This document shows positions 29,900 through 54,514 of a stretch of DNA of 64,000 bases, in pieces. This stretch comes from a bacterium (GTDB taxonomy: Bacteria > Patescibacteriota > Minisyncoccia > Phycocordibacterales > CAIZLB01). The first letter of the stretch is position 1. Every line of letters begins with the position of its first letter. The translations under genes and the position numbers were made by a program. The stretch is taken from positions 16,936 through 80,935 of the forward strand of contig JBAXXP010000001.1 in the NCBI GenBank assembly GCA_037127815.1. The letters run 5' to 3'. Under the pieces are notes generated by a model. That model made no database searches, was not told where the DNA came from, and saw only the letters and a list, made by a program, of their open reading frames with translations.

Positions 29900-29961
29900 T
29901 GCAGAAAAATAATCACAAAAAAAAGAGCCCTATTGCTAGGACTCTTTTTATTGTTTCTTTG

Positions 29962-30033
29962 CGCGGCTGATGGGTGCTGACCCCACGGCCTCTCCCGTGA
30001 CAGGGGAGTGCTCTACCGTTGAGCTACAGCCGC
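29962..30033 (-). tRNA. tRNA-Asp (anticodon GUC). CCA not encoded. Unusual T-loop (GTCAGCA)
   Basis: GCGGCTGTAGCTCAACGGTAGAGCACTCCCCTGTCACGGGAGAGGCCGTGGGGTCAGCACCCATCAGCCGCG. The anticodon loop CTGTCAC matches E. coli tRNA-Asp, and the discriminator is G. Confidence 0.7.
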
Positions 30034-30632
30034 ATTTTCATGAATCCTTCGAAAATAAGCTTTTTTCTGTCCAGATAAAGCTTACTCGTCGTATTATACA
30101 TGATTTTATAAATTTTCAAAGAGTCTCGGGTACTATACTGTAATCTACTATAATTTCCACTTCTAAGGTTAAATAAACTTCCACCGTCCAAACCTAAAGA
30201 ATTAAGCATATTAAATAGATTATTTAAGAACATTTTACTAGCAGAAGTAAAGGCTACAAACATCACGGATGTTGGTTTTTTTCTTGTTTTATTAGTATGC
30301 CCTACCCAGATATTTCCATCCCCATCAAAATACCCTCTAATAAAATCTCCTTCATATTTTTTTGGAATGGTAGGAATATCCATTCTTAATGACTTATTTG
30401 GGGTAAGTCCAAGGAGTACAAGGTCATTAAACATTTCTTTGCTTCCAATTTGGACCCTATATACAGACCCCGTTTCTGATTTTATTTCAGATATTTTATG
30501 TGGTAATTTCATTACTTCAGCAATAGAAATAAGAAGTTCCCTGTCAGCCGTATAGAAAGAGATAAAATGAGTATTTCTTTTAGTTTTAATTATGTTACCA
30601 TCTGCAAATAAAAAACCTAAAATATAAGCCAT
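30024..30632 (-). CDS. Free-standing double-motif LAGLIDADG homing endonuclease
   Basis: 202 aa. Motif 1 LGFLFADGNI and motif 2 IRGYFDGDGNI are spaced about 100 aa apart, typical of monomeric two-domain LAGLIDADG enzymes. The 3' end overlaps the first ~10 nt of tRNA-Asp. Confidence 0.8.
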   Translation of the reverse strand: MAYILGFLFADGNIIKTKRNTHFISFYTADRELLISIAEVMKLPHKISEIKSETGSVYRVQIGSKEMFNDLVLLGLTPNKSLRMDIPTIPKKYEGDFIRGYFDGDGNIWVGHTNKTRKKPTSVMFVAFTSASKMFLNNLFNMLNSLGLDGGSLFNLRSGNYSRLQYSTRDSLKIYKIMYNTTSKLYLDRKKLIFEGFMKMRL

Positions 30633-30740: not shown

Positions 30741-30814
30741 TGTCGACGGGAGGGATCGAACCTCCGACCTTGGGCTTATGAGTCCCACGCTCTAACCAAC
30801 TGAGCTACGTCGAC
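30741..30814 (-). tRNA. tRNA-Met (anticodon CAU), elongator-type or tRNA-Ile2-type (G1-C72 paired). CCA not encoded
   Basis: GTCGACGTAGCTCAGTTGGTTAGAGCGTGGGACTCATAAGCCCAAGGTCGGAGGTTCGATCCCTCCCGTCGACA. Anticodon loop CTCATAA. Confidence 0.75.
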
Positions 30815-30941
30815 GTACAGACACTATAATACAAAAACACCTAATTTTCAAGCTTTATAGAAGGCTCTATTTTATGCATTTTTTACGATTAATATCTACC
30901 CAGCAAAAAAGCCCCTATTAGGAGCTTTTTTTTTTAAATTG

Positions 30942-31012
30942 TTGCGGAGTCCGGAATTGCACCGGATCTACAAGGTTATGAGCCTCGCGTGCGACTGTAA
31001 CACTCCCCCGCA
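30942..31012 (-). tRNA. Atypical tRNA-like gene with a CAU anticodon loop. The D-loop lacks GG and the T-loop is TGCAATT
   Basis: TGCGGGGGAGTGTTACAGTCGCACGCGAGGCTCATAACCTTGTAGATCCGGTGCAATTCCGGACTCCGCAA folds into a cloverleaf with a 7-bp acceptor stem (U1-A72, one G.U) and anticodon loop CTCATAA. The D and T loops are non-canonical. Confidence 0.4.
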
Positions 31013-31120
31013 ATTTGTATCTATATCAAATATGAATACCTTCGTACTATATAACATATTGTAATAAAAGACAATCCTTTTCAGGTTTTAGTCTAAAATA
31101 CCAAATAGCAATAAGTCAGC

Positions 31121-35343: not shown

Positions 35344-35601
35344 CTAATAAAGTTCGCTATGCGAACCAATTTCGACTAGAATAACCACATCTTTCTGACT
35401 TTTATCAAAAATAACTCTAACATCCCCTGTTACATTCAAACTCCATAAATCCTTTAACTTACCAGATAGTCTATGAATATTTAGAGACCTATCACCTGAG
35501 TCTTTTATAAAAATTCCTATTCTAGCCCTGAACTCATTTTTAATTCTTTGGTCCTGTTTTTTAAATTGCTTATCAAATTTATTGGTAGTGGTTATTATCA
35601 T
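35344..35601 (-). CDS. Type II toxin-antitoxin toxin, RelE/ParE superfamily (YafQ-like mRNA interferase)
   Basis: 85 aa. KFDKQFKK...IKNEFRARIGIFIKD...SLNIHRLSGKLKDLWSLNVTGDVRVIF matches the YafQ/RelE pattern, including the conserved catalytic-region His/Arg. Confidence 0.6.
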   Translation of the reverse strand: MIITTTNKFDKQFKKQDQRIKNEFRARIGIFIKDSGDRSLNIHRLSGKLKDLWSLNVTGDVRVIFDKSQKDVVILVEIGSHSELY

Positions 35602-35629
35602 TAGTAAGGTTCATTATGACGACTAGAGA

Positions 35630-35896
35630 TTAAGAATTAAGATGCTTCATTAAATCATTGGTATTATCAAATGGGCCCGAGGTTTTACCTTCTTTATATT
35701 CTTTCCTTGCTTCAACAATTAAAGACTCTAAACGTGGTGTTATGGTTGTTGATGTAGAAAATTCAAGCTGACCAGTTCTTGCAAATTGCTTTAGTGTTGC
35801 GTTCACTATTGAACTCAAAGACAGCCCTAGATCAAAGGCTCTTTGCTGGGCTTGTACCTTTACATCATTATCTATCTTTAGATTGACCTGTGTTTT
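35630..35896 (-). CDS. Type II antitoxin, RelB/DinJ family (ribbon-helix-helix)
   Basis: MKTQVNLKIDNDVKVQAQQRAFDLGLSLSSIVNATLKQFA resembles the DinJ N-terminus (RIDEDLKNQA..VLAGMGLTISDLVRITL). It lies immediately upstream of the toxin. The start is taken at the internal Met of the track ORF. Confidence 0.6.
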   Translation of the reverse strand, partial: KTQVNLKIDNDVKVQAQQRAFDLGLSLSSIVNATLKQFARTGQLEFSTSTTITPRLESLIVEARKEYKEGKTSGPFDNTNDLMKHLNS

Positions 35897-35943
35897 CATA
35901 TACCATAAGTATATACTTATGGTAGCGTGAGTCAAGTCAACTA

Positions 35944-52900: not shown

Positions 52901-52992
52901 TGGCGGAGACGGAGGGATTCGAACCCTCGGTGCCGTTTAAAGGGCACACCTCTTTAGCAAAGAGGCACGTTAGACCACTCTGACACGTCTCC
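52901..52992 (-). tRNA. tRNA-Ser (anticodon GCU), type II with long variable arm. CCA encoded
   Basis: GGAGACGTGTCAGAGTGGTCTAACGTGCCTCTTTGCTAAAGAGGTGTGCCCTTTAAACGGCACCGAGGGTTCGAATCCCTCCGTCTCCGCCA. Anticodon loop TTGCTAA. Confidence 0.8.
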
Positions 52993-54427: not shown

Positions 54428-54514
54428 GGAGGATTGGATGAGCGGCTTAAATCAACAGTTTACTAAACTGTCGGCTTGGAAACAGGCCCGTGAGTTCGAA
54501 TCTCACATCCTCCG
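54428..54514 (+). tRNA. Type II (Ser-like, long variable arm, G73) tRNA with apparent anticodon ACU. CCA not encoded
   Basis: GGAGGATTGGATGAGCGGCTTAAATCAACAGTTTACTAAACTGTCGGCTTGGAAACAGGCCCGTGAGTTCGAATCTCACATCCTCCG. The anticodon stem ACAGT/ACTGT gives loop TTACTAA. The loop differs from the tRNA-Ser(GCU) loop TTGCTAA only by G34A. Confidence 0.6.

What the first reader, a model, noticed from the sequence alone, without database searches (positions are those of the whole stretch)
30942..31012. Second CAU-anticodon tRNA-like gene with non-canonical D- and T-loops
Immediately downstream of tRNA-Met(CAU) lies a 71-nt sequence that folds as a cloverleaf. It has a 7-bp acceptor stem with U1-A72, anticodon loop CUCAUAA, and T-stem TCCGG/CCGGA. 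Its D-loop (TACAGTC) lacks the universal G18-G19, and its T-loop (TGCAATT) has G55 instead of U. It may be tRNA-Ile2 (lysidine-modified CAU), an initiator variant, a tRNA pseudogene, or a tRNA-like regulatory or mobile-element remnant.
Basis: seen in the sequence. Interest (0 to 1): 0.5.

Follow-up and report, generated by a model that had tools for sequence, protein, structure and literature searches.

The report
Atypical initiator tRNA of a Parcubacterium
The odd second CAU tRNA is a real, conserved gene, most likely the start-codon (initiator) tRNA of an uncultivated Parcubacteria bacterium, and it carries a lineage-wide rewiring of the normally invariant contact between the D-loop and T-loop (A18/G55 instead of G18/U55).

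Summary
Window 30942-31012 (minus strand) encodes a 71-nt cloverleaf tRNA with anticodon CAU, U1-A72, D-loop UACAGUC and T-loop UGCAAUU (ARAGORN; Rfam tRNA 40.7 bits). It is neither a pseudogene nor a mobile remnant. The host is a Patescibacteria/Parcubacteria MAG. The same gene sits at the same syntenic place (ligA-gatCA-X-[this tRNA]-tRNA-Met-tRNA-Asp) in eight relatives. More than 100 further species carry the same type, with strong stem covariation.

Family features are those of bacterial tRNA-fMet:
- acceptor GCGGGG/CCCCGC
- unpaired 1:72 in 92 of 104 sequences
- A11:U24 in 91 of 104
- A73
- G30-C40 and G31-C39
- about 87% identity to E. coli metZWV

They differ by a 7-nt D-loop with A18 and a T-loop with G55. 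The A18/G55 swap recurs in other tRNAs of these bacteria. The window copy is more derived (G8, U14, C21, U11:A24, U1-A72) and is the intron-less allele of a gene that close relatives interrupt with an fMet-type group I intron at 33/34. The tRNA-Ile2 reading is unlikely.

Verdict: initiator tRNA, a new structural variant of a known kind, of moderate interest.

The parts
30942..31012 (-). Atypical tRNA(CAU), inferred to be the initiator tRNA-fMet. Position 1 is 31012, the anticodon CAU is 30980-30978 and the discriminator A73 is 30942. No CCA is encoded (the 3' trailer is CAA).
   Evidence: ARAGORN; Rfam tRNA 40.7 bits; cloverleaf minimum-free-energy fold; family statistics and covariation; homology to E. 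coli metZWV through family members.
30980..30981 (-). Empty group I intron site between U33 (30981) and C34 (30980). Close relatives carry a 229-230 nt intron exactly here.
   Evidence: L007/L009/L011 sequences; Rfam RF00028 at 58.8 bits against a gathering score of 50; L021, L137, L142 and L147.
31046..31074 (-). Promoter-like site TTGTCT-17-TATAGT, about 34 nt upstream of the tRNA 5' end. The equivalent site in relatives is TTGATT-17-TATATT.
   Evidence: Consensus scan. Conservation was read. It is a consensus match only; function is inferred.
30905..30931 (-). Terminator-like hairpin A6GCUCCU-loop-AGGGGCU6, directly after the tRNA and separating it from the next tRNA gene.
   Evidence: Fold of -14.1 kcal/mol, z -2.8. 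Relatives have a different GC hairpin plus T-run at the same place. The simple terminator scan did not flag it, because the U-run is absorbed into the stem.
30741..30814 (-). Canonical tRNA(CAU) with G1-C72, a GG D-loop and a UUCGAUC T-loop; inferred elongator tRNA-Met. It is the conserved downstream partner of the initiator.
   Evidence: ARAGORN and Rfam 69.8 bits. A type-B canonical CAU tRNA accompanies the G55-type tRNA in most of the loci scanned with ARAGORN (89 distinct sequences). The best E. coli match is annotated tRNA-Met.
30823..30851 (-). Promoter-like site TTGAAA-17-TATAGT for the canonical tRNA-Met, conserved in relatives.
   Evidence: sequences.
29961..30033 (-). tRNA-Asp(GUC), the third member of the conserved fMet-Met-Asp tRNA cluster.
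   Evidence: ARAGORN called 87 tRNA-Asp across the scanned loci.

Best explanation
Window 30942-31012 (minus strand) is the functional initiator tRNA gene (tRNA-fMet type) of a Parcubacteria/Paceibacteria bacterium.

Inferred working: it is transcribed as its own unit from a sigma-70-like promoter to an intrinsic-terminator-like hairpin. The transcript is trimmed and receives CCA post-transcriptionally. MetRS charges it through CAU and A73. It is then used at the ribosomal P site for initiation: G2-C71, C3-G70 and a weak 1:72 pair would serve formylation, and G30-C40 and G31-C39 would serve P-site licensing.

Its odd loops are not decay. They are the lineage's normal initiator architecture. 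The D-loop is shortened to 7 nt, and the near-universal elbow contact G18-Psi55 is replaced by A18 with G55, while G19-C56 is kept. This initiator therefore cannot carry Psi55.

The window's clade has drifted further, to G8/U14/C21, U11:A24 and U1-A72. The window allele lacks the self-splicing group I intron that interrupts the same gene between U33 and C34 in close relatives.

What is shown: the gene is real, conserved, covarying, homologous to tRNA-fMet and syntenic. What is inferred: its expression, charging, formylation and use in initiation, and the geometry of the A18-G55 contact.
For: 1. Real tRNA. ARAGORN calls it, Rfam scores it 40.7 bits and the minimum-free-energy fold is a cloverleaf.

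2. Purifying selection. The exons are 69/71 identical to L007/L009/L011/L021, and the two differences form a compensatory C-G to U-A pair at tRNA positions 51:63. The flanks are only 64-69% identical. The canonical neighbour tRNA is 98.6-100% identical.

3. Synteny. The order ligA-gatC-gatA-(260-aa protein)-[this tRNA]-tRNA-Met is kept in eight loci that were chosen through the neighbouring protein, not through the tRNA: window, L007, L009, L011, L013, L014, L169 and L170. All eight carry a G55/A18-type CAU tRNA.

4. Family size.

5. Family features. Among 104 distinct sequences:
- 1:72 is C:A 47, A:A 44, U:A 12, G:A 1.
- 11:24 is A:U in 91.
- A73 is present in all.
- 29:41 is A:U in 92, that is, au/GC/GC.
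- C33 occurs in 23.
The search pattern itself fixed CAUAACC, GGUGCAANUCC and CCGCA.

6. Covariation. 96.2% of cells are paired. There are 123 double-sided changes against 29 in shuffles, and 0 of 500 shuffles reach the observed value. Slid controls give 29-51% paired. Position 15:48 also covaries.

7. Homology to tRNA-fMet. A typical member (L031) is 86.5-87.8% identical over its full length to the four-copy E. coli tRNA-Met next to amiC, which is metZWV. In alignment the differences are a 2-nt D-loop deletion, G18 to A and U55 to G.

8. Intron type. The intron in relatives is a group I intron at 33/34. It aligns with a Bacteroidota tRNA-fMet IC3 intron at the same site (sequence from the PMC13011429 supplement).

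9. A18/G55 as a coupled change. Every non-initiator tRNA with G55 in these loci (elongator Met, Thr, Asp) has AG where its U55 homologues have GG.

10. CAU tRNA count. ARAGORN finds only two CAU tRNAs in five of the six complete Paceibacteria genomes whose rows I read. That leaves one initiator and one elongator (PMC13011429 Table S2).

11. Precedent. au/GC/GC initiators occur naturally, and G30-C40 is the essential pair (PMC5389676).
Against: The window copy itself lacks three textbook initiator marks.
- 1:72 is a Watson-Crick U-A pair, not a mismatch.
- 11:24 is U:A, which is elongator-like.
- Only two of the three G-C pairs are present.

Its initiator identity therefore rests on orthology to family members that do carry these marks, and on each deviation occurring singly in other members. 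BLAST finds no direct E. coli match for the window sequence.

The rest of this genome was not available, so a second, canonical initiator elsewhere is not excluded. No fmt, def, metG or IF genes lie in the window. There is no expression, charging or formylation data. tRNAscan-SE isotype models could not be run. The published study labels the Microgenomatia homologues 'Met', not 'fMet'.
Confidence: 0.82

Rival explanations
1. It is tRNA-Ile2: C34 is converted to lysidine by TilS and the tRNA reads AUA as an elongator.
For: The anticodon is CAU. In the window copy 1:72 is paired and 11:24 is Y:R, as in elongators.
Against: Positional orthologues and 92 of 104 family members have an unpaired 1:72, which by established knowledge blocks EF-Tu use. 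The acceptor stem and T arm are those of tRNA-fMet. The intron in relatives is of the fMet type. Complete Paceibacteria genomes mostly have two CAU tRNAs and two or three Ile tRNAs, so Ile2(CAU) seems to be generally absent from the class. No tilS lies in the window.
Confidence: 0.03
2. It is a second elongator tRNA-Met. The window's clade would have converted a former initiator (U1-A72, U11:A24) while another gene supplies the initiator.
For: The two features that most distinguish initiators from elongators are both elongator-like in the window clade.
Against: The adjacent canonical tRNA already fits the elongator role. U1:A72 and U11:A24 each occur in family members that otherwise keep initiator marks; for example L119 has C:A together with U11:A24 and L061 has U:A together with A11:U24. 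No other initiator candidate was seen in the window or in any related locus. Complete genomes of the class usually have only two CAU tRNAs.
Confidence: 0.07
3. It is a decaying tRNA pseudogene, a degenerate duplicate of tRNA-Met.
For: It has a low Rfam score, is missed by default filters, and lacks U8, A14, G18 and U55.
Against: The exons are 97% conserved against 64-69% in the flanks, with a compensatory change. It is identical in four independent samples. The family shows strong covariation. Promoter-like and terminator-like signals are conserved. It shares little sequence with the neighbouring tRNA-Met.
Confidence: 0.04
4. It is a tRNA-like remnant or attachment site of a mobile element, linked to the nearby LAGLIDADG homing endonuclease gene or to the intron.
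For: A LAGLIDADG ORF lies 310 nt downstream. The gene is a group I intron target in relatives.
Against: No integrase or element boundaries are present. Synteny is stable across distant relatives with and without the LAGLIDADG ORF. The full cloverleaf is under selection.
Confidence: 0.02

Closest known systems
Bacterial initiator tRNA-fMet (E. coli metZWV/metY)
   Same: CAU anticodon; acceptor stem N1-GCGGGG/CCCCGC-A72; A73; G2-C71 and C3-G70; GGCUCAUAACC anticodon arm; T-loop U-CAAAU. A typical family member is about 87% identical over its full length.
   Different: The family has a 7-nt D-loop (AGUAGUA against AGCCUGGUA), A18 for G18, G55 for U55/Psi55, and mostly A29-U41. The window copy additionally has U1-A72 instead of C1xA72, U11:A24 instead of A11:U24, G8, U14 and C21. 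No CCA is encoded.
Natural au/GC/GC initiator tRNAs of alpha-proteobacteria and some mycoplasmas (PMC5389676)
   Same: The first of the three G-C pairs is A-U, while G30-C40 and G31-C39 are kept.
   Different: As far as I know, those tRNAs keep the canonical D-loop and T-loop. The elbow change seen here is not part of that variant.
Eukaryotic cytoplasmic initiator tRNA (from my own knowledge)
   Same: It has an initiator-specific departure from the universal T-loop (A54 and A60 in eukaryotes) and C33 in vertebrates and plants. Here G55 is close to initiator-specific, and C33 occurs in 23 of 104 family members.
   Different: The positions and chemistry differ. This is a resemblance of principle only and no homology is implied.
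Group-I-intron-containing tRNA-fMet genes of Cyanobacteriota/Bacteroidota, and 'Met(CAU) 33/34' genes of Microgenomatia (PMC13011429)
   Same: Relatives of the window gene carry a group I intron at the same 33/34 site. Its core and 3' end align with the Bacteroidota fMet IC3 intron. The Microgenomatia exons share UGCGGGG, the GUGU/GCAC D-stem and CGAGGCU with the window tRNA.
   Different: The window allele has no intron. The Microgenomatia exons keep GG in the D-loop and U55. That paper does not discuss initiator identity or the D-loop and T-loop change.

Membership tests
tRNA (Rfam RF00005, canonical cloverleaf) | Cloverleaf with a 7/4/5/5-bp stem pattern scoring above the family threshold | tested here: met
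   40.7 bits against a gathering score of 29; ARAGORN call; minimum-free-energy cloverleaf.
tRNA (Rfam RF00005, canonical cloverleaf) | Conserved tertiary nucleotides U8, A14, G18, G19, U54, U55, C56, A58 | tested here: not met
   The window has G8, U14, A18 and G55. G19, U54, C56 and A58 are kept.
Bacterial initiator tRNA-fMet | Anticodon CAU with discriminator A73 | tested here: met
Bacterial initiator tRNA-fMet | No Watson-Crick pair at 1:72 (C1xA72) | tested here: not met
   The window has U1-A72, a weak Watson-Crick pair. In the family, 92 of 104 sequences are unpaired (C:A 47, A:A 44, G:A 1), including the syntenic orthologues L013 and L014.
Bacterial initiator tRNA-fMet | G2-C71 and C3-G70 (Fmt determinants, PMC5389676) | tested here: met
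   Present in the window and in all 104 family sequences. Positions 70-71 were fixed by the search pattern; positions 2-3 were not.
Bacterial initiator tRNA-fMet | Three consecutive G-C pairs at 29:41, 30:40 and 31:39 | tested here: not met
   The window has A29-U41, G30-C40 and G31-C39. This au/GC/GC pattern is found in 92 of 104 family sequences and is a known natural initiator variant; the essential G30-C40 pair is present.
Bacterial initiator tRNA-fMet | A11:U24 (my own knowledge: elongators have Y11:R24) | tested here: not met
   The window has U11:A24. In the family, 91 of 104 have A11:U24. The GUGU/GCAC subfamily combines U11:A24 with 1:72 mismatches.
Bacterial initiator tRNA-fMet | Sequence homology to an experimentally established initiator | tested here: inconclusive
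   The family member L031 is 86.5-87.8% identical over its full length to E. coli metZWV. The window sequence itself gives no BLAST hit. It is linked only through the family and through synteny.
Bacterial initiator tRNA-fMet | Formylation by Fmt, IF2 binding and P-site use | not testable with these tools
   No biochemical data are available, and fmt is not in the window.
tRNA-Ile2 (lysidine, CAU) | Elongator architecture with a fully paired acceptor stem across the family | tested here: not met
   1:72 is unpaired in 92 of 104 homologues.
tRNA-Ile2 (lysidine, CAU) | tilS in the genome and a third CAU tRNA | not testable with these tools
   Only 64 kb of the genome was available. Published counts give two CAU tRNAs in most complete Paceibacteria genomes.
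Group-I-intron-split tRNA gene | Group I intron in the anticodon loop | tested here: not met
   The window allele is continuous. Relatives L007-L011, L013, L021, L137, L142 and L147 have 229-230 nt introns (RF00028 at 58.8 bits).

The most novel reading that the evidence does not exclude
In Paceibacteria the A18-G55 elbow, and hence the absence of Psi55, together with the 7-nt D-loop, is a selected and largely initiator-specific identity or anti-determinant. It would be analogous in principle to A54/A60 in eukaryotic initiators. It would have co-evolved with the reduced CPR translation apparatus and would have allowed the classical bacterial marks (the 1:72 mismatch, A11:U24, the third G-C pair, U33) to relax. 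That relaxation is seen in its most extreme form in the window's clade.
Probability: 0.18. Interest if true: 0.72.

Novelty: new variant of a known kind. Interest (0 to 1): 0.5.

Why it matters
1. Annotation. The initiator tRNA of a very large uncultivated bacterial class sits at the edge of what standard tools detect. Rfam with default filters missed the window copy. ARAGORN missed two intron-less orthologues and every intron-containing one. A published survey labels the homologues simply 'Met'. Claims that tRNAs are missing from CPR genomes should therefore be checked against this family.

2. RNA structure. G18-Psi55 is among the most conserved tertiary contacts in biology. Here nature offers a clean coupled replacement (A18 with G55), fixed in one tRNA species across many lineages and recurring in others. 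This makes the geometry and tolerance of the tRNA elbow directly testable.

3. Translation initiation. Within one orthologous family these initiators progressively lose textbook identity elements (the 1:72 mismatch, A11:U24, 3 G-C pairs, U33, U8). This gives a natural series for asking what Fmt, IF2 and IF3 really need in bacteria with reduced genomes.

Tried and rejected
- Phage origin. A distant BLAST of the region against phage genomes returned only generic tRNA and gatA-like hits. The window is an ordinary CPR chromosome with ligA, gatCA, RF, ftsEX and a type IV pilus cluster.
- Direct BLAST of the window tRNA against E. coli gave no hit. The link to tRNA-fMet had to be made through less derived family members.
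- The simple terminator scan found nothing. Folding shows that the hairpin absorbs the U-run into its stem.
- My first reconstruction script missed all intron-less genes because of an indexing error. This was fixed and cross-checked with ARAGORN.
- Literature searches for a described CPR initiator tRNA or an A18/G55 elbow found nothing relevant. This covers only the open-access library that could be searched.
- I looked for fmt, def, truB, tilS, metG and IF genes in the window and found none.
- L168 (a homologue of the neighbouring protein) lacks the synteny and has no tRNA. L012 is cut at the contig end.
- A viral-contig scan for the unrelated tRNA-Ser(ACU) found nothing.
- The pseudogene, mobile-remnant and Ile2 readings were considered and rejected, as set out under the rival explanations.

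Full report
**1. What is in the sequence**

The stretch 30942-31012 read on the minus strand is a 71-nt tRNA:

UGCGGGG GA GUGU UACAGUC GCAC G CGAGG CUCAUAA CCUUG UAGA UCCGG UGCAAUU CCGGA CUCCGCA A.

- ARAGORN calls it tRNA(CAU).
- Rfam's tRNA model gives 40.7 bits (gathering 29, E 3e-7) when the region is searched locally. The whole-window gathering scan dropped it.
- The minimum-free-energy fold is the cloverleaf.

The gene is on the minus strand. In the direction of transcription it lies upstream of the canonical tRNA(CAU) at 30741-30814. The D-loop keeps one G. U8, A14 and A21 are also replaced, by G8, U14 and C21.

**2. Context**

The window is a normal chromosome segment of a Patescibacteria (CPR) bacterium of the Parcubacteria/Paceibacteria group.
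- It encodes NAD-dependent ligase, a RelB/YafQ pair, GatC, GatA, pilins and a type IV pilus cluster, RF, FtsEX and other housekeeping functions.
- Homologues of the neighbouring 260-aa protein are named Patescibacteria, Parcubacteria or Paceibacterota by their sources.

The tRNA has a promoter-like site (TTGTCT-17-TATAGT, 31074-31046) and is followed by a 12-bp A6GCUCCU/AGGGGCU6 hairpin at 30905-30931. The canonical tRNA(CAU) downstream has its own TTGAAA-17-TATAGT site. Both signals recur in relatives with different sequence. Function of these signals is inferred, not shown.

**3. Orthologues**

I fetched loci through the neighbouring protein, so the choice did not depend on the tRNA. The order ligA-gatC-gatA-X-[tRNA]-tRNA-Met(-LAGLIDADG)-tRNA-Asp is conserved.

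In L007, L009 and L011, where protein X is 66-70% identical, ARAGORN reports no tRNA at this place. The sequence nevertheless shows the same tRNA, split after GGCU by a 230-nt insert that ends in G before CAUAACC. Rfam identifies the insert as a group I intron (RF00028, 58.8 bits, gathering 50). [quoted passage not shown]

The window is therefore the intron-less allele. All other window-clade alleles found carry the intron (L021, L137, L142, L147).

The exons differ from the window at only two positions, which form a compensatory pair in the T-stem (UCCGG/CCGGA against UCUGG/CCAGA). The flanks are only 64-69% identical, and the canonical neighbour tRNA is 98.6-100% identical. This excludes a decaying pseudogene.

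**4. Identity**

More distant syntenic orthologues are less derived. L013 and L014 read:

AGCGGGG UA GAGA AGUAGCA UCUC G AGAGG CUCAUAA CCUCU AGAC CCCGG UGCAAAU CCGGG CCCCGCA A.

They have an A1xA72 mismatch, A11:U24 and the acceptor stem of E. coli tRNA-fMet.

A scan of one genome per GTDB species, with a pattern for the 3' half, reached its 120-locus limit. Almost all hits are in Parcubacteria lineages, including Adler-, Kaiser-, Giovannoni-, Wildermuth-, Sung-, Nomura-, Nealson- and Zambryskibacteria.

Among 104 distinct mature sequences:

| Feature | Count |
|---|---|
| 1:72 | C:A 47, A:A 44, U:A 12, G:A 1 |
| 11:24 A:U | 91 |
| D-loop AGUAGUA | 63 (nearly all others also 7 nt, with AG at 18-19) |
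| 29:41 A:U | 92 |
| Anticodon loop | CUCAUAA 81, CCCAUAA 23 |
| A73 | all 104 |

The pattern itself fixed CAUAACC, GGUGCAANUCC and CCGCA, so those positions are not independent evidence.

A typical member (L031) is 86.5-87.8% identical over its full length to the E. coli tRNA-Met present in four copies, three of them in tandem beside amiC; this is metZWV. The alignment reduces the difference to three items: a 2-nt deletion in the D-loop, G18 to A, and U55 to G.

A mismatch at 1:72 together with G2-C71 and C3-G70 is the Fmt determinant. au/GC/GC anticodon stems are known natural initiator variants in which G30-C40 is the essential pair (PMC5389676).

The introns of the Paceibacteria genes are homologous to one another. 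They also align with a Bacteroidota tRNA-fMet IC3 intron inserted at the same site.

Finally, Table S2 of PMC13011429 shows that ARAGORN finds two CAU tRNAs in five of the six complete Paceibacteria genomes whose rows I read. Saccharimonadia genomes have three CAU tRNAs and a single Ile tRNA. The two adjacent CAU genes in the window are therefore probably the whole set: one initiator and one elongator. The canonical neighbour has G1-C72, and its best E. coli match is annotated tRNA-Met.

**5. Structure is under selection**

On 36 diverse sequences the cloverleaf is 96.2% paired. There are 123 double-sided changes against 29 +/- 5 in shuffles (0 of 500 reach the observed value). Slid controls give 29-51% paired.

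The only position that is systematically unpaired is 1:72. Over all 104 sequences each stem position pairs in at least 103, and several show up to five pair types. The Levitt pair 15:48 covaries: G:C 86, A:U 10, A:A 4.

There is a caveat. Acceptor and anticodon-stem pairing were used as criteria when genes were reconstructed or called. D-stem pairing and T-stem pairs 49-51 were not.

**6. The elbow**

In 100 of the 104 sequences, positions 18, 19 / 55, 56 read AG / GC. The same coupling appears independently in other tRNAs of these loci:
- Elongator-type tRNA-Met genes with T-loop UGCAAGU have D-loop AGGUAGUUA, where their U55 homologues have AGUUGGUUA.
- One tRNA-Met has AGACAGUUA with UGCGACU.
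- One tRNA-Thr has AGGUAGUA with UGCAAAU.
- One tRNA-Asp has AGCUAGUUA with UGCGAAU.

G18-U55 and A18-G55 therefore behave as alternative states of one contact. The most likely geometry, an A-G pair stacked on the retained G19-C56, is my inference.

The other tRNAs in the window keep GG in the D-loop. All but tRNA-Asp (T-loop GUCAGCA) also keep a UUC-type T-loop. In this genome the A18/G55 change is thus specific to the initiator.

**7. The window's clade**

The window belongs to a subfamily with D-stem GUGU/GCAC (U11:A24), a purine at position 8 and D-loop NACAGUN. A metagenome scan gave 31 true hits for it. It is also present in the unbiased syntenic loci L169 and L170. There Rfam scores 50.5 and 46.6 bits, but ARAGORN reports nothing.

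Within this subfamily 1:72 is A:A, C:A or U:A. The window clade combines U1-A72, U11:A24, au/GC/GC and the G8/U14/C21 triple. That makes it the most elongator-like member of an initiator family. This is the main reason confidence in initiator function is 0.82 rather than higher.

**8. Comparison with what is known**

The gene works like, and is homologous to, bacterial tRNA-fMet. Judged strictly on the window sequence it fails four textbook criteria: the 1:72 mismatch, A11:U24, the three G-C pairs, and the conserved elbow nucleotides. I therefore file it as a new structural variant of the initiator, not as a canonical member.

Group I introns at 33/34 in Patescibacteria 'Met(CAU)' genes and in cyanobacterial fMet genes are already published (PMC13011429). 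I found no description of the A18/G55 and short-D-loop initiator, nor of its distribution. That search covered only the open-access library.

**9. Verdict**

This is a new variant of a known kind, with interest 0.5.

Noticed in passing
window 54428-54514 (+): A class II tRNA with a long variable arm and G73, so Ser-type, has anticodon loop UUACUAA, giving anticodon ACU. Rfam scores it 51 bits in a local search, and ARAGORN calls tRNA-Ser(ACU). The whole-window gathering scan missed it. It is only about 60% identical to the normal tRNA-Ser(GCU) at 52901-52992, so it is not a recent duplicate. An A34 serine tRNA is very unusual in bacteria.
   Followed up: partly
window 29961-30033 (-): The tRNA-Asp(GUC) has T-loop GUCAGCA where relatives have UUCGAGC. 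This is another non-canonical T-loop in the same tRNA cluster.
   Followed up: no
window 30024-30632 (-): A free-standing LAGLIDADG homing-endonuclease ORF lies between tRNA-Met and tRNA-Asp, and its last 10 nt overlap the 5' end of tRNA-Asp. It is present at the same place in L007 and L011 and absent in L009/L010. The window genome has the endonuclease gene but not the initiator-tRNA intron.
   Followed up: partly
L007 4941-5170; also L009, L011, L013, L015, L021, L025, L037, L083, L097, L103, L109, L137, L142, L147, L165: Group I introns of 215-250 nt sit at position 33/34 of Paceibacteria initiator tRNA genes. They carry no ORF and resemble the IC3 fMet intron of Bacteroidota. ARAGORN does not call any of these genes. 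L156 and L159 seem to carry other, longer inserts.
   Followed up: partly
L030, L031, L057, L103, L109, L110, L113, L117, L127 (tRNA-Met); L095 (tRNA-Thr); L109 (tRNA-Asp): Elongator tRNAs in some Kaiser-/Adlerbacteria-type genomes also carry G55, always together with A at position 18.
   Followed up: partly
23 of the 104 distinct family sequences, e.g. L017, L026, L038, L040, L041: These initiator tRNAs have C33 (loop CCCAUAA) instead of the near-universal U33, as in vertebrate and plant cytoplasmic initiators (the comparison is from my own knowledge).
   Followed up: no
window 30741-30814 (-) and type-B tRNA-Met in many loci: The canonical tRNA-Met has a conserved non-Watson-Crick 31:39 pair at the base of the anticodon loop: A.G in the window, and A.A or U.G elsewhere.
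   Followed up: no
L034 (Acutalibacteraceae), L039 (Chthoniobacter), L019 (Hyphomicrobiaceae), L027/L078 ('Gammaproteobacteria'), L103 ('Nitrospira', 3.5-kb contig): A few G55 initiator-like tRNAs occur in bins not labelled Patescibacteria. L034 and L039 keep a canonical GG D-loop and an encoded CCA. Some of the others may be mis-binned CPR contigs.
   Followed up: no
PMC13011429 Table S2: In the Table S2 rows I read, Paceibacteria and Microgenomatia genomes mostly show 2 CAU tRNAs and 2-3 Ile tRNAs, while Saccharimonadia show 3 CAU tRNAs and mostly a single Ile tRNA. This suggests the first two classes read AUA without a lysidine tRNA.
   Followed up: no
window 35344-35935 (-): A RelB-like antitoxin and a YafQ/ParE-like toxin pair are inserted between ligA and gatC. 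The same pair is present in L011 but not in L007 or L009.
   Followed up: no
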